The notes under the pieces: generated by a model
The model's database searches: none
Told to the model about the DNA's origin: nothing
Seen by the model: only the letters and a program-made list of their open reading frames with translations
IMG/VR virus record: IMGVR_UViG_3300045988_118801
Span: 1-64,000 of that record
Source: a virus
DNA: 64,000 nt
Reading direction: 5' to 3' (one strand)
Part shown: in pieces, positions 8,123 through 56,333 of the stretch
Layout of the letters: the number at the start of each line of letters is the position of its first letter
Numbering within the stretch: the stretch's first letter is position 1
Program-made: the position numbers and the translations under genes

Positions 8123-8857
8123 ATGAGTAATTATTATGATGCTTACAGAGTACCCGGAGTTGCTTATGCAAGGGTACAATTAAGTGCTGCTGGTGATATT
8201 GGAGGTCAGCGTTCAGTGTTCGTTGATATTAGCGGGCAGAAAAACGATTTGGTTGCTCCCCCATTCGGTGCTACTTGGATGAATCCTTTCAAGGGATTTG
8301 CTAAAATCTATGCAGGTGACTTGTTTGAGTTCAGAACAGACGACAAGGGTGAACATCCAGAAGCTTATCTGTTGAAAACATTCAAGGTAAAATCGCAGAC
8401 AACCACTACTATTAAAATCTACCGTGACGGATATTCTCATGTTCCGTTTGTAGGTGACGTGTTGATGAAAGCACCTGAAACTGTCGGTGCTAAAGGAGGT
8501 CAGGCTTCTAAGGTTACTTCCGTAACTGAATCTACTGACGGTGGCAAAGATGTTTGGGAAGTTGTTGTAGACACTGAAATCGCAAGTCTGACTGACGGTG
8601 ATATTTTGGTTGAAGCGCAAGACAGCGGACAGACTGCTACTGGCACAATGCTTGTGAAGAATATCAGTGCTGTTGCACCTTGTGACTATGACTTCGTTTA
8701 CTATCCTATGACTAACAACTACAAGGAAGTAAGCAAGGTACGTGTAAGCATTACACCGATGCTGCATGGCAGAATGTACATTCACAAGATGTCGCCTATG
8801 CCTAAATGTGTGTTGGATTTGAACAAGAGCCGTATCAACGGTTGGTATGAGGTTTAA
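8123..8857 (+). CDS. head protein (decoration or accessory capsid protein?)
   Basis: Position between the scaffold-like and capsid-like genes. Beta-rich composition. Confidence 0.35.
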   Translation: MSNYYDAYRVPGVAYARVQLSAAGDIGGQRSVFVDISGQKNDLVAPPFGATWMNPFKGFAKIYAGDLFEFRTDDKGEHPEAYLLKTFKVKSQTTTTIKIYRDGYSHVPFVGDVLMKAPETVGAKGGQASKVTSVTESTDGGKDVWEVVVDTEIASLTDGDILVEAQDSGQTATGTMLVKNISAVAPCDYDFVYYPMTNNYKEVSKVRVSITPMLHGRMYIHKMSPMPKCVLDLNKSRINGWYEV

Positions 8858-41321: not shown

Positions 41322-42503
41322 TTAAATCAAATTTATAATATTTTCGTTTGCTTTGTCTATCTCCTTGTTCCCGAATGATGCAAGATATACTTGTGTTACT
41401 TTTTCACTACTATGTCCCATACTCTTGCTAATCACAGATAAAGGAATATTTGCTACATTTTGTGCTATACTCGCCCAACTATGTCTTGCAACATACATTG
41501 TTAAATTTGCATCAATTCCACAATAAACGGCTAGTTCTTTTAAACTTTTATTAGTATATTCAAGGCAATTCCTTTCTTTGGCGTATTCGTCAGCCTTACA
41601 TGTTGCTATCGGGAAGATATAATCACCATCAGTACGCACATACTTTTCAATAATTTTCTTAATATCTTTTTCGAGTTTGATATGAATAAGTTTACCCGTC
41701 TTTCTTCGTTGATAACTTATCATACCGTCTTGTATATTCGACTTTTTTAATGAAACAATATCAATAAAGCTCATTCCACGTGTATAAAAACTGAACATAA
41801 ACAAATCACGTGCAAAGTCAAGTTTGGGATATGCTTTCAGATTGATAGACTTTATTTTCTTAATGTCGTTTACTGATATAGCACGTTTTACTGTCACATC
41901 AACACCTTTATAAACGTGCTTAAAAGGGTCTGTCAATGTAGGAGGTAAAACTCCATTATCAACTGCTTTATTCCAAACAGCACGCAAATTACGAATATAG
42001 AAACTTGAAGTATTTCGCTTTAGTCCTCGTGACAACAGCCACGCTTCAAAGGATTCTACAAAATCACAATCTATATCATGTATGCTTGTATAATCATTCC
42101 CTACAAACTCATATATTCTTTTTGCTAGGTTTTTGTAATTGTCGCTTGTTTTTGGTTTCCCAGACATTTTTAATCTTTCAGAAATCAAAATGATATAATT
42201 TATCAAATTGTTTCTTTCGTCCTCAATAGCACGTATTACATCATCGGCAGAATAATTTGGATTTGCTTTTTCAAGTGATTCAATGCATTTGTTTATCTGC
42301 TTGATGTATTGCTTTATTCTTTCGTTTATATCCTCATCTTTTGTACATGGGAAAGAATTATTTCCTATCCACATATCATTCAATAGCCTTAAATCAGGAT
42401 TAAATTGTCTTACAACCCGTTTTCTGATTATTTGAAAATAAATCCTGCCTTTACCGAATTGTTTTTGTGAAGGTGTAAACTTCACCATTACTGACGTATT
42501 CAT
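41322..42503 (-). CDS. int: tyrosine site-specific integrase (Bacteroides type)
   Basis: C-terminal catalytic region TMYVARHSWASIA...MGHSSEKVTQVYL (R, HxxR-like, H, Y). N-terminal arm/SAM-like domain. Confidence 0.8.
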   Translation of the reverse strand: MNTSVMVKFTPSQKQFGKGRIYFQIIRKRVVRQFNPDLRLLNDMWIGNNSFPCTKDEDINERIKQYIKQINKCIESLEKANPNYSADDVIRAIEDERNNLINYIILISERLKMSGKPKTSDNYKNLAKRIYEFVGNDYTSIHDIDCDFVESFEAWLLSRGLKRNTSSFYIRNLRAVWNKAVDNGVLPPTLTDPFKHVYKGVDVTVKRAISVNDIKKIKSINLKAYPKLDFARDLFMFSFYTRGMSFIDIVSLKKSNIQDGMISYQRRKTGKLIHIKLEKDIKKIIEKYVRTDGDYIFPIATCKADEYAKERNCLEYTNKSLKELAVYCGIDANLTMYVARHSWASIAQNVANIPLSVISKSMGHSSEKVTQVYLASFGNKEIDKANENIINLI

Positions 42504-49441: not shown

Positions 49442-49888
49442 ATGAACAACTACGACCAAATCTGCAAAAAGCTATTTGAGCTGATTCCAAAAGATGAATG
49501 GGAAAGGCTGAACGGCACTTTAGGAGAGATGTGCTCTGAATTTTTAGTTTTCTGTGACACATACTATCATTTGAGCAAGATTATTCCTAAAGATTGGACG
49601 GTGATTGACTTTGGTGCTGCAAACAATCCGCAGAGTTACTTCTTTACGGAGCACAAGAAATACATTGCAGTCAACCCTATAAGTGATATTCCCGAAGAAA
49701 ACGGAATGTTTTGTCCTCTTAATTGTGAGATTTACCGAATGACTACGGGTGAATTTATAAAAACCGTAGATTATCCGAAAGAAAAAGTCTTTGCTGTATG
49801 TAACTTTGTCCCTGATTGGCACGGTGAAAATAGCATGGAACTTGTGAGAAAGAATTTTAAGAATTGTTACACATTTTATCCTGATTGA
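49442..49888 (+). CDS. hypothetical protein
   Basis: ORF track. Confidence 0.5.
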   Translation: MNNYDQICKKLFELIPKDEWERLNGTLGEMCSEFLVFCDTYYHLSKIIPKDWTVIDFGAANNPQSYFFTEHKKYIAVNPISDIPEENGMFCPLNCEIYRMTTGEFIKTVDYPKEKVFAVCNFVPDWHGENSMELVRKNFKNCYTFYPD

Positions 49889-52730: not shown

Positions 52731-53018
52731 ATGGATTGGAATAAAATTAAAATCGAAATAGCAAAAACGGCTATGTCTTCATTTATATCCAGACCCAATC
52801 ATGGATATTCTTACGAGGAAATATCAATAATGTCAAGGAGATACGCCGAGGAAATGCTTAAGCAATTAAATGGCGATTACGAAAAAGAAATTGCCAATAA
52901 AGCAAAAGAAGAAATGATTAAAACTTTTAAAGACTGGTTTTGTGAACCTTACTGCCGATTCTACGGCAATGAGGATTATTGCAAAACTTGCCTTATGAAT
53001 AAAAAAATGAATTTATGA
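52731..53018 (+). CDS. hypothetical Cys-containing protein
   Basis: ATG at 52731; the track start at 52671 is TTG. Confidence 0.45.
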   Translation: MDWNKIKIEIAKTAMSSFISRPNHGYSYEEISIMSRRYAEEMLKQLNGDYEKEIANKAKEEMIKTFKDWFCEPYCRFYGNEDYCKTCLMNKKMNL

Positions 53019-53062
53019 AATAAAAAAAACGCAAAATATTTTGGTGGTAATATAATAATCAC

Positions 53063-53070
53063 TATATTTG
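53063..53070 (+). promoter_or_regulatory. candidate -7 box TATATTTG driving the non-coding RNA
   Basis: Matches TAnnTTTG, with TTTG about 20 nt upstream at 53040-53043. Confidence 0.45.
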
Positions 53071-53075
53071 CAATG

Positions 53076-53312
53076 TCATTAAGACAAGACATAATGAGTG
53101 GCAAAAGTTTCAGTTACTTCGGTGCTATATGAATTTTAAACTGAATCTTAAATATCCCTCTTTTATAACGTAGTGAAAAAATGGGTTACTTCAAATTATT
53201 AAGTGTTTAGGTTCGAGTCCTAATACGGTTTATCCGTATTAGCAATTGGTAGCAAAACCCATTTTAAACTATCTCGTTAATCAAAGGATACCATTCGTGG
53301 TATCCTTTTTTT
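53076..53312 (+). ncRNA. Y-RNA-like (YrlA-like) non-coding RNA with a tRNA-like module, upstream of the TROVE/Ro gene
   Basis: No ORF. T-arm TTAGG-TTCGAGT-CCTAA (53207-53223). Hairpin TACGG-tttat-CCGTA (53224-53238). 10-bp closing helix 53178-53187/53256-53265. UUCG-capped hairpin in the 5' half. Perfect terminator at the 3' end. Confidence 0.55.
53283..53312 (+). terminator. intrinsic terminator
   Basis: AAAGGATACCA-ttcg-TGGTATCCTTT (11 bp), then a T run. Confidence 0.75.
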
Positions 53313-53340
53313 GTTTATAAACATCTAAAACATTATAACT

Positions 53341-54726
53341 ATGAGTAAATTCAGCAAAAAAGAAAAATCAGTAAAAAACAGAGCTGGCGGTATCGCTTAC
53401 AAAGAGAGTGAAAACATGGAACTTGTATCTATGCTATTGTGTTCTTTTATGAACGATAAATTCTATGAGAATACAAAAGATTTTGAATCAAGACTTGAAA
53501 CATGTATAGAAAAGTGTGATAAGCTATTTGCGGCAAAAGCAATAGTATATGCCAGAAAAGAATTTGGAATGAGAAGTGTAACTCATGCAGCGGCTTCAAT
53601 ACTCGCCAAGCATGTGTCAGGTGAACCTTGGGCAAAATCATTCTATAATAATGTCGTTTATCGTTTGGATGATATTACTGAGATAATGGCTTACCATTTT
53701 TCCAAACAGAATAAGCTATCAAGTGCTATGAAGCGTGGGTTTGCTATGGCTTTCAACAGATTTGACGAATACCAGATTGCAAAGTACAAAGGCAGTAATA
53801 ACTCAATCAAGCTTGTCGATGCGGTAAATATGATTCACCCTAAAAAATCTGCAAAGAACGGAGATGCTATAGAAAAGCTGGTTAATGGAACTCTGAAATG
53901 CTCTGAAACATGGGAAAGCATGTTGTCTGATGCCGGCAACGACAAAGAAGCAAAAATAAAAGTATGGAAGAGCTTAATTTCTGAAAATAAGCTTGGATAT
54001 ATGGCACTACTTCGTAATGTGCGAAATATCGTATTGCTTGAAGACGATGAATTAAAAGCAATGTGCTATAAGGCACTTGTAAACAAAGACGCTATCCATA
54101 AATCATTGGTTTTACCTTTCAGATTTTTGACTGCATACGAACAGTTATCATTTGATTCAGAGGCGATGTCATACATAAGTCAGGCTTGCGAAATTGCTTG
54201 CGACAATGTACCTAAACTTGATGGTAAAACTCTGGTTGCACTTGATGTAAGTGGTTCTATGTATCGTGTTTCAAAGATAGCTTCTTTATTTGCGGCAGCA
54301 TTTGTTAAATCTAATCATTGTGACCTTGTTTCTTTCGATTATTCTGCCAGATACATAAATGTCAACTGGAATGACAGTTTGCTGACAATCCAAAGACAAT
54401 TAAACTTCTGTGGTGGTGGAACAAATTTCCCTTCTATATTCAATGTTGCTAACAAGAAATACGATAGGGTTATCATTCTTTCGGATATGCAAAGCTGGAT
54501 GAACAGACATTCCCCTAAACAAGCGTTTAAGTTTTATAAATCAAAATTCGGAATTAAAGACTGTAAGGTTTATTCAATAGACCTTCAAGGATATGGAACT
54601 TTACAGCTACCCCAAAAAGATGTATTCTGTCTTGCTGGCTTTAGCGAAAAAGTCTTTGACCTTATGAATCTAATAGAGCAGGGATATAATGCTCTTATGG
54701 ATAAAATCAATGAAATAACGCTGTAA
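53341..54726 (+). CDS. rsr: TROVE-domain (Ro60-like) protein with a C-terminal vWA domain
   Basis: N-terminus NRAGGIAYKESENMELVSMLLCSFMNDKFYE (TROVE-like). MIDAS LDVSGSM, then a vWA-like region to the C-terminus. Confidence 0.65.
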   Translation: MSKFSKKEKSVKNRAGGIAYKESENMELVSMLLCSFMNDKFYENTKDFESRLETCIEKCDKLFAAKAIVYARKEFGMRSVTHAAASILAKHVSGEPWAKSFYNNVVYRLDDITEIMAYHFSKQNKLSSAMKRGFAMAFNRFDEYQIAKYKGSNNSIKLVDAVNMIHPKKSAKNGDAIEKLVNGTLKCSETWESMLSDAGNDKEAKIKVWKSLISENKLGYMALLRNVRNIVLLEDDELKAMCYKALVNKDAIHKSLVLPFRFLTAYEQLSFDSEAMSYISQACEIACDNVPKLDGKTLVALDVSGSMYRVSKIASLFAAAFVKSNHCDLVSFDYSARYINVNWNDSLLTIQRQLNFCGGGTNFPSIFNVANKKYDRVIILSDMQSWMNRHSPKQAFKFYKSKFGIKDCKVYSIDLQGYGTLQLPQKDVFCLAGFSEKVFDLMNLIEQGYNALMDKINEITL

Positions 54727-55540: not shown

Positions 55541-55617
55541 TTATAGTAGGCGGTAGAAATATCGCCTATTTTAATGTTATTTAACTATATAAAATTGTAT
55601 AATGCATCTTCATATCG

Positions 55618-55625
55618 TATATTTG
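55618..55625 (+). promoter_or_regulatory. candidate -7 box TATATTTG
   Basis: Lies inside the track ORF 5' extension, 25 nt before the ATG at 55650. Confidence 0.4.
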
Positions 55626-55649
55626 TATCAAACATTAAAATATAATGAT

Positions 55650-56333
55650 ATGACAGGTATTTATATGATTACAGTTAAAGATGTGTATGCTTACATCGGT
55701 CAATCAGTTGATATTGATAACAGACTAAAAAAGCACAAAAGAGATATAGAGAATAAGTGTCATCCCAATATGGATAATGTAGGAGATTATTCTTTATCAG
55801 ATTGCAAGTTTTCTGTTTTGACGGAATGTAAAAGCGAAGAATTAAATGATATGGAATTAGAAATGTATGAGAAATACTCTACTTCATACATAATGCTAAA
55901 CAAAAGAGTGTGTGGAATACAAGGAGTAGTTGGTGAATCTTTAGTATTCTACAATGGTAAAAATCCAAATCTAAATTACAATAATGGAAGTTTTTATATA
56001 GAGGATATAAAAATAAATTCCACTGATAATATGTATTGCTTATCTGATTTAGTATTGTATATCAGAAACCATACAGACTATGACTTCAAGCTAAATGGAG
56101 TGCTTGTTAACAATGGTTTTATAGATAGAATTAACGCATTATGCGGATTGGCAATACCGAAAACAAGAAACACCGCTAAATATTTAAAGGAAGCTGGAAT
56201 TTATAAAGTTATAGGAGCAAGAGAAAACAAAAAAATATATTGCAGTTTTGAGGTTTTTGTAACATTTGCTTTTTATAGCTGCCCTCAATTTGCTGCTTCT
56301 ATTTGTATTATGATTGGAGATAAATTAAAGTAA
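55650..56333 (+). CDS. GIY-YIG homing endonuclease
   Basis: MTGIYMITVKDVYAYIGQSVDIDNRLKKHKR: GIY, then 9 residues, then YIG, plus the conserved Arg. Confidence 0.7.
   Translation: MTGIYMITVKDVYAYIGQSVDIDNRLKKHKRDIENKCHPNMDNVGDYSLSDCKFSVLTECKSEELNDMELEMYEKYSTSYIMLNKRVCGIQGVVGESLVFYNGKNPNLNYNNGSFYIEDIKINSTDNMYCLSDLVLYIRNHTDYDFKLNGVLVNNGFIDRINALCGLAIPKTRNTAKYLKEAGIYKVIGARENKKIYCSFEVFVTFAFYSCPQFAASICIMIGDKLK

What the first reader, a model, noticed from the sequence alone, without database searches (positions are those of the whole stretch)
53019..54726. Phage-borne Ro60/TROVE-vWA gene preceded by a promoter- and terminator-bounded tRNA-like (Y-RNA-like) non-coding RNA
The CDS 53341-54726 has a TROVE-like N-terminus (NRAGGIAYKESENMELVSMLLCSFMNDKFYE). 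It also has a vWA domain with the MIDAS motif DVSGSM.

The 322-nt gap upstream has no ORF but looks like an independent transcription unit:
- A TATATTTG -7 box at 53063-53070.
- An 11-bp perfect hairpin plus T-run terminator at 53283-53312.

The predicted ~235-nt RNA contains several structured elements:
- A canonical tRNA T-arm, TTAGG-TTCGAGT-CCTAA (GGTTCGAGTCC).
- An adjoining hairpin, TACGG-TTTAT-CCGTA.
- A TTGGTAG string like a tRNA D-loop.
- A 10-bp long-range helix, AAAATGGGTT/AACCCATTTT, that encloses these three elements.
- A 5' domain closed by TTCAGTT/AACTGAA, with a UUCG loop.

Bacterial Ro60 orthologues (Rsr) are known to be encoded next to Y RNAs whose effector module mimics tRNA (YrlA). 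This locus has that architecture inside a Bacteroidota-type phage. No RtcB/RtcA or PNPase partner is visible nearby. A phage Ro-Y RNA particle could act in RNA quality control, tRNA-related counter-defence or RNA decay during infection.
Basis: partly seen in the sequence, partly recalled or inferred. Interest (0 to 1): 0.8.

Follow-up and report, generated by a model that had tools for sequence, protein, structure and literature searches.

The report
Phage Ro60 gene with two Y RNAs
A temperate tailed phage, probably of Bacteroidota, carries a Ro60-type RNA-binding ring protein preceded by two small structured RNAs, one shaped like a tRNA; this is a divergent, unannotated branch of the already known Ro60/Y-RNA partnership.

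Summary
CDS 53341-54726 is a Ro60 protein: TROVE and Ro60-vWA domains, an intact MIDAS motif, and a predicted fold matching every solved Ro60. The window is a phage (terminase, portal, capsid, tape measure, integrase).

The 322-nt gap holds two tandem Y-RNA-like modules, not one RNA:
- M1, 53092-53164, is a short rod.
- M2, 53164-53281, is a permuted tRNA mimic.
- They lie between a conserved Bacteroidota-type -33/-7 promoter and an intrinsic terminator.

Both modules share a "handle". It has a closing stem, a G[U]RG/CYC helix with a bulged pyrimidine, YRA, a second stem and then UUAC-UUC.

A covariance model built only from distant loci (proteins at most 57% identical, window excluded) finds M2 as the only hit in the window, at 64 bits and E 4e-15. 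A model of short modules finds M1 at E 6e-4. Covariation is strong: 89% of cells paired against 63% in shuffles.

The same modules occur in arrays of up to 6 next to Ro60 genes, always on the gene's strand, in at least 81 of 98 related viral and metagenome loci and in many bacterial genome assemblies.

Rfam YrlA scores only 23.9 bits against a threshold of 69, and the GNCGAA motif is absent. Phage Ro60/Y-RNA pairs are already published, so this is a new variant of a known kind. Expression and binding are untested.

The parts
53040..53043 (+). -33-like TTTG of a Bacteroidota-type promoter
   Evidence: TTTG lies 19 nt upstream of the -7 box. TTTG-N19-20-TAnnTTTG is kept in relatives L090, L091, L093 and L097 while the spacer sequence differs; L082 shares the window's sequence but has TATATTTA, and L084 has CTTG at -33. 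The consensus itself is from my knowledge of Bacteroides promoters. Not tested experimentally.
53063..53070 (+). -7 box TATATTTG (TAnnTTTG)
   Evidence: Read directly. (C)TATATTTGCA is conserved in L084, L091, L093 and L097. L090 has TACATTTG and L082 has TATATTTA.
53092..53164 (+). Module M1, a short Y-RNA-like rod. P1 is 53092-97 with 53159-64. GUGGCAA is 53098-104, with G[U]GG pairing CCC at 53156-58. P2 is 53105-15 with 53139-49. UUAC is 53114-17. The hairpin is UUCG 53118-21 with UGAA 53130-33.
   Evidence: R3, built from 26 short modules of IMG/VR loci only, scores 26.1 bits, E 5.9e-4. The minimum-energy fold reproduces the family structure, but its z-score is only -0.97. M1 is 73/73 identical to L082 apart from an 18-nt loop insertion in L082.
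53164..53281 (+). Module M2, a YrlA-like permuted tRNA mimic on the same handle. P1 is 53164-69 with 53276-81. GUAGUGA is 53170-76, with G53170-C53275, U53171 bulged, A53172-U53274 and G53173-C53273. P2 is 53178-87 with 53256-65.
   Evidence: R2 (window excluded) scores 64.0 bits, E 3.9e-15, and is the only hit in the window. R3 scores 34.1 bits, E 6e-6, with a 56-nt insertion where the tRNA-like part sits. Rfam YrlA scores 23.9 bits, E 0.0078. The fold has z -4.2.
53186..53204 (+). UUAC junction (the YUAY of YrlA) and the V hairpin: ACUU 53188-91, a 9-nt loop, AAGU 53201-04
   Evidence: TTACTTC is invariant in all 24 long and 26 short aligned modules. The hairpin was read from the sequence. 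The window's loop is not anticodon-like.
53207..53223 (+). T-arm UUAGG-UUCGAGU-CCUAA
   Evidence: The GGTTCGA..CC core is invariant or nearly so across 24 modules. Four of the five stem pairs show changes on both sides, and 97.5% of cells are paired.
53223..53239 (+). Closed acceptor-like stem-loop (AS): AUACGG-UUUAU-CCGUAU
   Evidence: All 6 pairs of this helix show compensatory changes across the family. The R2 alignment places it between the T and D elements.
53240..53253 (+). UA linker (53240-41) and a reduced D-arm: GC, AAUUGGUA, GC
   Evidence: The R2 alignment matches UAGC..AAUUGGUA..GC to the consensus UAGCuCAaUUGGUAGaGC. The stem is only 2 bp here, against 4 bp (GCUC/GAGC) in most relatives.
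53267..53275 (+). 3' strand of the handle, AACUAUCUC (family consensus aUUUUCYC)
   Evidence: It covaries with the 5' motif in 93 distinct modules. Position 1 with the last base gives G-C 64, A-U 18, G.U 8. Position 3 with the second-last base gives A-U 55, G-C 22.
53283..53315 (+). Intrinsic terminator: 11-bp stem, UUCG loop, T-run
   Evidence: It is conserved in position in L082-L097 with different stem sequences. L082's stem has G.U pairs where the window has A-U and U-A, which fits the plus strand.
53341..54726 (+). Ro60 orthologue: TROVE/HEAT ring plus vWA with a MIDAS site (D302, S304, S306, T361, D382)
   Evidence: Pfam TROVE 83.8 bits and vWA_Ro60 38.5 bits. PHROG 850, RNA-binding protein, E 1e-40. 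The phiLo Ro60 chains 9KOP/9L5Y match at E 4e-18 over residues 5-452. The AlphaFold model (pLDDT 81.9) has TM 0.65-0.72 to 13 Ro60 chains. The MIDAS residues are invariant in 35 homologues.

Best explanation
This is a phage-encoded Ro60/Y-RNA cassette.

Transcription. A host-type Bacteroidota promoter (-33 TTTG, -7 TATATTTG) starts transcription near 53076. Most transcripts stop at the terminator (53283-53315). They give a primary RNA of about 235-240 nt that carries two Y-RNA-like modules. Read-through of the terminator supplies the Ro60 mRNA.

The handle. Each module has the same handle. It consists of a closing stem P1, a short conserved helix with a bulged pyrimidine (G[U]RG paired with CYC), YRA facing UUU, a second stem P2, and UUAC. 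I infer that this handle is the docking site for the Ro60 ring. It would be the counterpart of GGUCCGA and its bulged helix in animal Y RNAs, and of GNCGAAN0-1G in bacterial YrlA.

The cargo. M1 carries only a small hairpin, so it resembles YrlB. M2 carries a circularly permuted tRNA-like domain of the YrlA type: V hairpin, T-arm, closed acceptor-like stem, UA, D-loop. By analogy with Deinococcus, Salmonella and Thermus phage phiLo, the RNA tethers Ro60 to a host partner. That partner could be PNPase or another 3'-5' exoribonuclease, or a tRNA-binding protein that recognises the T/D elbow. The result would be redirected RNA decay or quality control during infection.

Shown here: the protein family and fold, the RNA family membership, the covariation, and the strict linkage and strand bias.

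Inferred: transcription, processing, Ro60 binding to the handle, the identity of the effector, and the benefit to the phage.
For: Protein:
- TROVE and Ro60-vWA score above Pfam cut-offs.
- The full-length sequence matches phage phiLo Ro60.
- The predicted fold matches 13 Ro60 chains at TM 0.65-0.72.
- The MIDAS residues are invariant.

RNA:
- R2, built without the window, scores 64 bits, E 3.9e-15, as the only hit in the window.
- R3 hits both modules.
- RNAalifold predicted P1, the bulged helix, P2, and the T, AS and D arms on its own. 28 of 31 pairs carry compensatory changes.
- 89% of cells are paired, against 63% in shuffles and 42-52% in slid controls. The covariation score is 0.655 against 0.207, and 0 of 500 shuffles reach it.
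- In 93 distinct modules, 347 of 465 P1 cells pair, against 198 +/- 9 when partners are permuted. The bulged helix switches G-C to A-U in step.

Linkage to Ro60:
- R1 gives 188 hits in 98 Ro60 loci and 130 hits in 80 genome loci. All are on the gene's strand and nearly all lie just upstream.
- The upstream gene differs between loci while the ORF-free gap persists.

Link to the known family:
- Rfam YrlA is the top match for the window (23.9 bits) and for 13 modules in 9 of the 10 relatives scanned (29-45 bits).
- The UUAC, UA and T/AS/D order match the published YrlA description.

Precedent: phage YrlA RNAs, and phiLo Ro60 binding two upstream Y-like RNAs and host PNPase.

Promoter and terminator are conserved in relatives.
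Against: - There are no expression or binding data for this phage.
- Rfam YrlA is far below its gathering score, 23.9 against 69.
- The published GNCGAAN0-1G motif is absent.
- The NCBIfam Rsr equivalog scores 23.9 against a cut-off of 900.
- M1 on its own is weak: E 5.9e-4, and its fold z-score is only -0.97.
- The window's D stem is reduced to 2 bp, so the tRNA-like fold may be compromised in this particular copy.
- The minimum-energy fold of M2 does not form the T-arm.
- The effector of YrlA-type RNAs is unknown even in model bacteria, so the tethering step is an analogy.
- The terminator sits 28 nt before the ATG. That also fits a cis-acting leader.
Confidence: 0.8

Rival explanations
1. 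The structured region is mainly a cis-acting leader of the Ro60 mRNA. Ro60, or a tRNA-related signal, binds the modules in the nascent transcript and sets how often RNA polymerase reads through the terminator at 53283-53315. The short RNAs would be by-products of this autoregulatory attenuator.
For: - Only 28 nt lie between the T-run and the ATG, and no second TAnnTTTG box is visible there.
- Promoter, modules, terminator and gene keep the same order and tight spacing in L082-L097.
- All modules in 178 loci are on the gene's strand.
Against: - In crAss001 the related modules lie downstream of the TROVE gene, where they cannot be its leader.
- Arrays of up to 6 modules spanning about 700 nt are excessive for an attenuator.
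- No alternative anti-terminator pairing was looked for or found.
- Known Ro60 partners act in trans.
- This reading is not exclusive with the main one.
Confidence: 0.12
2. The handles are the paired leader and trailer of a phage tRNA-like precursor cassette. Their job is processing or stabilisation of tRNA-shaped RNAs by RNase P, RNase Z or RNase III, and the neighbouring Ro60 gene is only loosely connected.
For: - In phage csAssE-Sib two handles enclose elements that ARAGORN and the GenBank record call tRNA-Tyr and tRNA-Lys.
- Ro60 loci are rich in tRNA genes: 279 ARAGORN calls in the sequences held, which are the 181 loci and the whole window.
- M. smegmatis YrlA is cut by RNase P and receives CCA.
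Against: - Only 3 of 72 distinct modules enclose an unpermuted tRNA-like element.
- Most cargos are permuted, with a closed acceptor stem, or are plain hairpins. Neither can mature into a tRNA.
- The window has no tRNA gene at all.
- The tie to Ro60 genes is near-universal in the loci sampled. Those loci were chosen through Ro60, however, so occurrence of the handle away from Ro60 genes was not tested.
Confidence: 0.05
3. The region holds decayed tRNA genes or chance tRNA-like strings with no function.
For: - ARAGORN finds no tRNA.
- Rfam tRNA scores 16.5 bits, below its threshold.
- The D stem is degenerate in the window.
Against: - The handle, which no tRNA possesses, is conserved with covariation across loci whose proteins are only 41-57% identical.
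- The order T-AS-D is permuted in the same way throughout the family.
- The window and L082 have 100% and 92% identical handles, while the cargo has diverged yet still forms T and AS helices.
Confidence: 0.02

Closest known systems
YrlA (Rfam RF02553), the bacterial and phage tRNA-like Y RNAs next to rsr (Chen et al. 2014, PMC4201824; structure in bioRxiv 10.1101/312249)
   Same: - It is encoded within 4 kb of the Ro60 gene on the same strand.
- It has the same permuted order: V, then T-arm, then a closed acceptor-like stem, then UA, then D-arm.
- The stem that leads to the Ro60-binding end takes the place of the anticodon stem.
- A conserved YUAY (here UUAC) precedes V.
- YrlA is the best Rfam match for the window and its relatives.
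   Different: - All examined members fall below the Rfam threshold: 23.9 bits in the window and 29-45 bits in relatives, against 69.
- There is no GNCGAAN0-1G. Instead both strands of a bulged helix are conserved (G[U]RG-YRA with UUUUCYC).
- The window's D stem is only 2 bp.
- The modules stand in tandem arrays that share one handle.
Thermus phage phiLo Ro60 with Yrl1 and Yrl2 (PMC12135203; PDB 9KOP, 9L5Y)
   Same: - It is a phage Ro60 with two Y-like RNAs encoded directly upstream of the gene.
- It is the closest solved structure to the window's protein (E 4e-18 by sequence, TM 0.72).
- No PNPase is encoded by the phage; the host PNPase is recruited in vitro.
   Different: - The phiLo RNAs were defined by a CGAA motif in a bulge and are not described as tRNA-like.
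- Protein identity is only about 24%.
- The host is Thermus, not Bacteroidota.
Deinococcus radiodurans Yrn1 and animal Y RNAs (Rfam RF00019)
   Same: - The Ro60-binding end is a two-stranded conserved helix with a bulged pyrimidine, as the handle is here (for the published contrast with YrlA).
- Yrn1 tethers Ro60 to PNPase.
   Different: - There is no Rfam Y_RNA hit in the region, even at E up to 10.
- The motif sequence differs: GGUCCGA against GURGYRA.
- Yrn1's tRNA-like part has the opposite orientation, and animal Y RNAs have none.
Salmonella YrlB
   Same: It is a second, smaller Y RNA without a tRNA-like domain, encoded next to YrlA and sharing its Ro60-binding motif. M1 stands in the same relation to M2.
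   Different: - No sequence similarity was tested, and YrlB has no Rfam family that matched.
- YrlB homologues were reported only in Salmonella.
TROVE protein Gp96 of Bacteroides phage crAss001 (PMC8375218)
   Same: - It is a Bacteroidota phage TROVE gene, reported as an early gene.
- Handle-type modules lie on the same strand in the adjacent 905-nt gap (R3 28.5 bits, E 8e-5; R1 20-22 bits).
   Different: - The modules are downstream of the gene, not upstream.
- The matches are weak.
- It is a podovirus-like Crassvirales phage rather than an integrase-bearing siphovirus-like one.
- No RNA was described there.

Membership tests
Ro60 / Rsr protein family | TROVE (HEAT-repeat ring) domain above the curated Pfam score | tested here: met
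   PF05731 scores 83.8 bits against a cut-off of 23, E 1.9e-23.
Ro60 / Rsr protein family | C-terminal Ro60-type vWA domain with MIDAS residues DxSxS...T...D | tested here: met
   PF25045 scores 38.5 bits against 27.7. D302, S304, S306, T361 and D382 are invariant in 35 homologues.
Ro60 / Rsr protein family | Ring-shaped Ro60 fold | tested here: met
   The AlphaFold model has pLDDT 81.9 and pTM 0.76. The top 13 Foldseek PDB hits are all Ro60 chains (phiLo, Xenopus, human, Deinococcus) with TM 0.65-0.72. This is a prediction, not a solved structure.
Ro60 / Rsr protein family | NCBIfam equivalog 'RNA-binding protein Rsr' NF041674 above its cut-off | tested here: not met
   23.9 bits against a cut-off of 900, and only the vWA part matched. 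The protein is a divergent Ro60 relative, not an Rsr equivalog by NCBI's rule.
Ro60 / Rsr protein family | Binds Y RNA and misfolded RNA | not testable with these tools
   Needs EMSA, RIP or CLIP.
YrlA (RF02553) | Encoded within about 4 kb of the Ro60 gene on the same strand | tested here: met
   M2 ends 60 nt before the ATG, on the plus strand.
YrlA (RF02553) | Conserved T stem-loop | tested here: met
   UUAGG-UUCGAGU-CCUAA at 53207-23. The core is invariant in the family and the stem covaries.
YrlA (RF02553) | Conserved D stem-loop (GCUC-A..GG.A-GAGC) | tested here: inconclusive
   The window has GC-AAUUGGUA-GC, a 2-bp stem. Most relatives have the full 4-bp arm, with 92.6% of cells paired.
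YrlA (RF02553) | Closed acceptor-like stem-loop between T and D, followed by a UA dinucleotide | tested here: met
   AUACGG-UUUAU-CCGUAU at 53223-39, then UA at 53240-41. All 6 pairs show compensatory changes in the family. The feature is as described.
YrlA (RF02553) | Conserved YUAY at the start of the variable region | tested here: met
   UUAC at 53186-89. TTAC is invariant in 50 aligned modules. The feature is as described.
YrlA (RF02553) | GNCGAAN0-1G motif near the 5' end | tested here: not met
   The 5' strands read GAGUGGCAAAAG (M1) and CGUAGUGAAAAAAUG (M2). The family consensus is G[U]RG-YRA. It resembles GGUCCGA and GNCGAA only in the YGA core.
YrlA (RF02553) | Rfam gathering score of 69 bits | tested here: not met
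   The window scores 23.9 bits. Thirteen modules in 9 of the 10 relatives scanned score 29.4-44.8 bits. Nothing reaches the gathering threshold.
YrlA (RF02553) | tRNA-type modifications (pseudouridine 55, dihydrouridine) and association with Ro60 in vivo | not testable with these tools
   Experimental.
tRNA | Cloverleaf in canonical order, recognised by ARAGORN or Rfam RF00005 | tested here: not met
   ARAGORN finds 0 genes in the window. RF00005 scores 16.5 bits against 29.
Animal-type Y RNA (RF00019) | Match to the Rfam model | tested here: not met
   It is not among the matches listed at E up to 10 for 52950-53400.
Bacteroidota housekeeping promoter | -33 TTTG and -7 TAnnTTTG about 19-21 nt apart (consensus from my knowledge of Bacteroides promoters) | tested here: met
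   TTTG at 53040-43, a 19-nt spacer, then TATATTTG at 53063-70. Both boxes, spaced 19-20 nt, are kept in L090, L091, L093 and L097 with variable spacers; L082 has the window's sequence but TATATTTA at -7, and L084 has CTTG at -33. This rests on sequence only. The sigma-70 scan is uninformative here.

The most novel reading that the evidence does not exclude
The conserved handle may be a portable Ro60-docking cassette on which phages and bacteria mount interchangeable tRNA-shaped cargos. Three kinds of cargo are seen:
- plain hairpins;
- permuted tRNA bodies, about a third of which keep an anticodon-arm look-alike (7-nt loop, U33, purine 37);
- near-canonical tRNAs, as in csAssE-Sib.

Arrays of up to six such Ro60-bound tRNA look-alikes could act as decoys or sponges for host anticodon nucleases and other tRNA-directed defences. 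Alternatively they could deliver Ro60 and an exonuclease to damaged tRNAs. Either way the cassette would be a counter-defence or tRNA-surveillance device rather than a general decay factor.
Probability: 0.12. Interest if true: 0.75.

Novelty: new variant of a known kind. Interest (0 to 1): 0.42.

Why it matters
Ro60/Y-RNA particles are well studied in animals because of lupus and Sjogren autoimmunity, and in a few bacteria. Their role in phages is nearly unexplored.

This locus belongs to a large subfamily that current annotation misses:
- It is present in at least 81 of 98 sampled viral and metagenome loci, in many Bacteroidota and Verrucomicrobiota assemblies, and probably in crAss001.
- Rfam calls nothing in these loci.
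- In one phage genome the cargos are annotated as tRNAs.

Three things follow:
- The shared two-stranded handle gives a concrete, testable candidate for the Ro60 binding site.
- The handle links the YrlA-type cargo with a Deinococcus- or animal-type bulged helix.
- The apparent presence in cultured crAss001, where the TROVE gene is reported as early, offers an experimental system in a dominant human gut phage group.

The general principle, a phage Ro60 with adjacent Y-like RNAs, is already published. The advance is therefore incremental.

Tried and rejected
- Rfam at gathering thresholds found nothing in the window. In 20 related loci it found only two tRNAs.
- ARAGORN on the window found nothing.
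- A single-protein scan of IMG/VR found no relative. The alignment-based scan was needed.
- Megablast of 22 kb of the window against phage records gave no match, so the phage could not be named.
- The sigma-70 promoter scan found no more sites than shuffles. It does not cover Bacteroidota promoters.
- The 7-mer TTACTTC alone is not diagnostic in this AT-rich window: 23 matches against 13.5 expected.
- The supplementary tables of Chen et al. 2014 and the 2020 Annual Review were not available. I could not check whether Bacteroidota or this motif appear in their lists.
- Literature searches for Ro60 or Y RNA in Bacteroides or crAss phages gave only the crAss001 TROVE mention.
- I considered and rejected the idea that the UUCG at 53118-21 is a tetraloop. 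It pairs with UGAA and is part of the invariant UUAC-UUC.
- The weak R3 match at 49630-49668 (E 2.3) lies inside ORF 49442-49888. I treat it as chance.
Full report
**1. What is in the sequence**

- The CDS 53341-54726 encodes 461 aa.
- The upstream gap 53019-53340 is 322 nt. Its only ORF is a mechanical 42-aa TTG ORF on the opposite strand.
- The pattern scan finds an 11-bp stem at 53283-53308 followed by a T-run. It is one of only two terminator-like sites in 4 kb.
- That hairpin folds at -14.2 kcal/mol, z -5.4.
- The 246-nt region as a whole folds with z -3.9, and 0 of 200 shuffles fold as well.

**2. The protein is a Ro60**

- Pfam gives TROVE at 83.8 bits (cut-off 23) and the Ro60-specific vWA domain at 38.5 bits (cut-off 27.7).
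- PHROGs places it in phrog_850, 'RNA-binding protein', E 1e-40.
- By sequence the nearest solved structure is the Ro60 of Thermus phage phiLo, aligned over residues 5-452 at E 4e-18.
- An AlphaFold model built on 35 homologues has pLDDT 81.9 and pTM 0.76. Its 13 best PDB matches are all Ro60 chains (phiLo, Xenopus, human, Deinococcus), with TM 0.65-0.72.
- The MIDAS residues D302, S304, S306, T361 and D382 are invariant in the alignment.
- The protein is not an Rsr 'equivalog' by NCBI's model: 23.9 bits against a cut-off of 900. It is a divergent member of the family.

**3. The context is a phage**

- The window encodes a large terminase, an HNH endonuclease, a major head protein, a tape measure, an SbcC-like protein, an integrase, a sliding clamp and a primase-helicase.
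- It also encodes an SPP1-type portal, a GIY-YIG endonuclease and a DNA methylase.
- All ORFs of at least 390 aa and the genes flanking the Ro60 gene were profiled. None matched PNPase or RtcB.
- No record in the phage collection is similar at the DNA level.
- The nearest genome-collection relatives of the protein (56-57% identity) are labelled Porphyromonadaceae, Bacteroidales and, for one short contig, Roseburia. Below that come many Bacteroidota, and also Verrucomicrobiota and others.

**4. The RNA: first tests**

- At curated thresholds Rfam finds nothing in the window. ARAGORN finds no tRNA.
- In permissive mode on 451 nt, the best match is YrlA at 53179-53282 on the plus strand. It scores 23.9 bits, E 0.0078, far under the gathering score of 69.
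- That alignment places the T-arm, the adjoining hairpin and the D-loop correctly. It mis-assigns the outer stems.

**5. Relatives show two modules, not one RNA**

The protein has 3351 homologues at E<1e-20. I collected two sets of loci:
- 80 IMG/VR loci with 41-57% identity;
- 17 contig loci, representing seven homologous proteins of 60-91% identity.

In the closer contigs the upstream gene differs between loci (clamp, small ORFs, a Band_7 protein). An ORF-free gap of 320-475 nt always precedes the Ro60 gene.

Aligning those gaps shows the same flanking strings twice. In window coordinates:
- M1, 53092-53164: GAGUGGCAAAAG ... GUUACUUCG ... AUAUCCCUC.
- M2, 53164-53281: CGUAGUGAAAAA ... GUUACUUCA ... 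tRNA-like part ... CUAUCUCG.

The -7 box and a -33 TTTG are kept 19-20 nt apart in four of the six relatives, with variable spacers. L084 has CTTG at -33 and L082 has TATATTTA at -7. The terminator keeps its place with different stem sequences.

**6. The shared handle**

The 7-mer TTACTTC recurs one to six times upstream of the gene, on its strand, in most of the loci.

Searching only for complementarity around each copy gave 153 candidate sites. Most of them have the same plan: a closing stem P1, then G-Y-R-G-Y-R-A, then stem P2, then UUAC-UUC, then a variable apex, then P2', then (A)UUUUCYC, then P1'.

In 93 distinct modules defined with stricter rules, features that were not used to find them covary:
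- 347 of 465 P1 cells pair, against 198 +/- 9 when partners are permuted.
- Motif position 1 against the last 3' base gives G-C 64, A-U 18, G.U 8, A.C 3.
- Position 3 against the second-last base gives A-U 55, G-C 22, A.C 15, G.U 1.
- Position 2 is always a pyrimidine and is left unpaired.

The handle therefore contains a conserved helix with a bulged pyrimidine, with both strands recognisable. Module sizes are bimodal: about 60-90 nt and about 106-154 nt.

**7. Structure and covariation of the long modules**

On a MAFFT alignment of 24 long modules, RNAalifold predicted P1, the bulged helix, P2, the T-arm, the closed stem between T and D, and the D-arm, without guidance. 28 of 31 pairs carry compensatory changes.

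I added the small hairpin that follows UUAC and counted the pairs:

| Measure | Observed | Shuffles | Slid controls |
|---|---|---|---|
| Cells forming a standard pair | 89.0% | 63.2% | 42-52% |
| Cells changed on both sides | 230 | 77 | 43-71 |
| Covariation score | 0.655 | 0.207 (0 of 500 reach it) | 0.11-0.18 |

G.U pairs are frequent in these helices. The terminator difference between the window and L082 also involves G.U pairs. Both fit the plus strand.

**8. Independent models**

- R2 was built from 18 long modules of IMG/VR loci only. Their proteins are at most 57% identical, and neither the window nor its close clade was included. It finds exactly one match on both strands of the 64-kb window: 53164-53281, 64.0 bits, E 3.9e-15.
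- R3 was built from 26 short modules of the same distant loci. It finds 53165-53280 at 34.1 bits, E 6e-6, with a 56-nt insertion where the tRNA-like part sits. It also finds 53092-53163 at 26.1 bits, E 5.9e-4.
- M1 is thus supported, but less strongly. Alone it folds into the family structure with z only -0.97.

**9. Spread of the family**

- Model R1 gives 188 matches at E<=0.01 in the 98 viral and metagenome loci, in 81 of them. All are on the gene's strand and nearly all lie just upstream. They form arrays of up to six, for example in L062.
- R1 gives 130 matches in the 80 genome loci, again all on the gene's strand.
- Rfam YrlA hits 13 of the long modules in 9 of the 10 relatives scanned, at 29-45 bits. 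It never reaches 69.
- The family is therefore a divergent relative of YrlA that curated annotation misses.

**10. Comparison with published YrlA**

Chen et al. 2014 define YrlA by four features:
- proximity to the Ro60 gene on the same strand;
- a 5' GNCGAAN0-1G motif;
- nearly invariant T and D stem-loops with an acceptor-like stem-loop (AS) between them;
- a less-conserved V stem-loop upstream of T, with a conserved YUAY beginning the V loop.

The crystal-structure paper adds a UA linker between AS and D, and a conserved UA kink.

M2 meets all of these except two:
- GNCGAA is replaced by GUAGUGA with a conserved partner strand.
- The D stem is only 2 bp here.

Chen et al. note that only the 5' strand of the Ro60 site is recognisable in Salmonella and Mycobacterium YrlA, whereas Deinococcus and animal Y RNAs keep both strands of a bulged helix. 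The present handle resembles the latter, while its cargo is of the YrlA type.

**11. What is already known**

- YrlA-like RNAs were reported next to Ro60 in 22 bacteriophages.
- The phiLo study shows a phage Ro60 binding two upstream Y-like RNAs and host PNPase in vitro.
- Jumbo-phage TROVE proteins with a tRNA-like partner are mentioned in a review.
- crAss001 expresses a TROVE gene early.
- I found no description of this handle, of the arrays, or of Y RNAs in Bacteroidota phages in the held literature. Key supplements and one review were unavailable.

**12. Most likely mechanism**

- A Bacteroidota-type promoter drives a primary transcript of about 240 nt that ends at the terminator.
- Read-through probably supplies the Ro60 mRNA, because only 28 nt separate the T-run from the ATG.
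- The Ro60 ring docks on the bulged-helix handle of each module.
- M2's tRNA-like elbow recruits a host partner: an exoribonuclease as in RYPER complexes, or a tRNA-binding protein.
- The steps from transcription onward are inferred.

The main rival is a cis-acting leader or attenuator. It is not exclusive with the main reading, and it is weakened by crAss001, where the modules lie downstream of the gene.

**13. Verdict**

- The locus is a new variant of a known kind.
- Interest is moderate.

Noticed in passing
L180 (phage csAssE-Sib, OR575929.1) 2138-2268 and 2284-2415: The elements annotated in GenBank, and called by ARAGORN, as tRNA-Tyr(GUA) and tRNA-Lys(UUU) sit exactly in the apex of two complete handles just upstream of the 'Ro sixty-related protein' gene. 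They are in normal, unpermuted tRNA order but have weak A/U acceptor stems, and in the 'Tyr' one position 33 is G. They may be Y-RNA cargos mis-annotated as tRNAs, or tRNAs delivered on a Ro60 handle. Only 3 of 72 distinct modules are of this kind; the third is in L137.
   Followed up: partly
L179 (Bacteroides phage crAss001, MH675552.1) locus 8158-8774, minus strand, which is record 96157-96773: The 905-nt unannotated gap immediately downstream of the TROVE gene Gp96 holds one R3 match (28.5 bits, E 8e-5) and three weak R1 matches (20-22 bits). All are on the gene's strand. They contain UUACUUC, T-arm and D-arm strings. This is a cultured phage with published infection RNA-seq.
   Followed up: partly
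tRNA-like modules across the fetched loci, e.g. L003 2297-2428, L020 2253-2384, L072 1985-2117: In 25 of 77 distinct tRNA-like modules, the hairpin after UUAC looks like an anticodon arm. It has a 7-nt loop, U at '33' in 24 of 25, a purine at '37' in 25 of 25, A at '38' in 22 of 25, and varied 'anticodons'. A 5-nt AGGUC/UGGUC variable loop often follows. The window's own hairpin has a 9-nt loop and does not look like this. The pattern fits the published idea that YrlA arose from dimeric tRNA transcripts.
   Followed up: partly
window 53164-53281 compared with L082 2806-2941: The closest relative (protein 91% identical, CDS 88% at the DNA level) has handles 29/29 and 23/25 identical to the window. 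The tRNA-like cargo is only 42/64 identical and is 20 nt longer, with different T, AS and D stems. M1 differs only by an 18-nt loop insertion in L082. The cargo evolves, or is exchanged, much faster than the handle.
   Followed up: yes
L097 2686-2933: In this relative (protein 69% identical) both modules carry tRNA-like cargos, where the window and the other close relatives have one short and one long module.
   Followed up: partly
window 49630-49668, plus strand: There is a weak partial match to the short-module model (11.5 bits, E 2.3), containing GAGUUACUUC, inside ORF 49442-49888. It is probably chance.
   Followed up: no
window, whole: TTACTTC occurs 23 times against 13.5 +/- 3.2 expected, and 0 of 100 shuffles reach 23. 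Fifteen of the copies are on the plus strand, and most lie inside coding regions. This may reflect codon or oligonucleotide bias rather than RNA modules.
   Followed up: no
window 55602-56333, and the same position in L082, L090 and L091: The slot between the Ro60 gene and the primase-helicase holds a GIY-YIG endonuclease in the window. In relatives it holds HNH or NUMOD-type homing endonucleases. It looks like a hot spot for mobile endonuclease genes.
   Followed up: no
window 41322-42503, minus strand: This ORF is a tyrosine-integrase-like gene (PHROG 1, E 2e-27). The phage is therefore probably temperate, and the window could come from a prophage.
   Followed up: no
L001 (LR745206.1, a 635-kb uncultured phage) 2537-2609: The huge-phage Ro60 homologue (48.5% identical) also has one strong short module upstream of its gene (R3 57.6 bits, E 5e-12).
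   Followed up: partly
L057 4404-4538, L078 5170-5306, L065 3282-3353: A few modules lie downstream of the Ro60 gene rather than upstream, still on the same strand.
   Followed up: no
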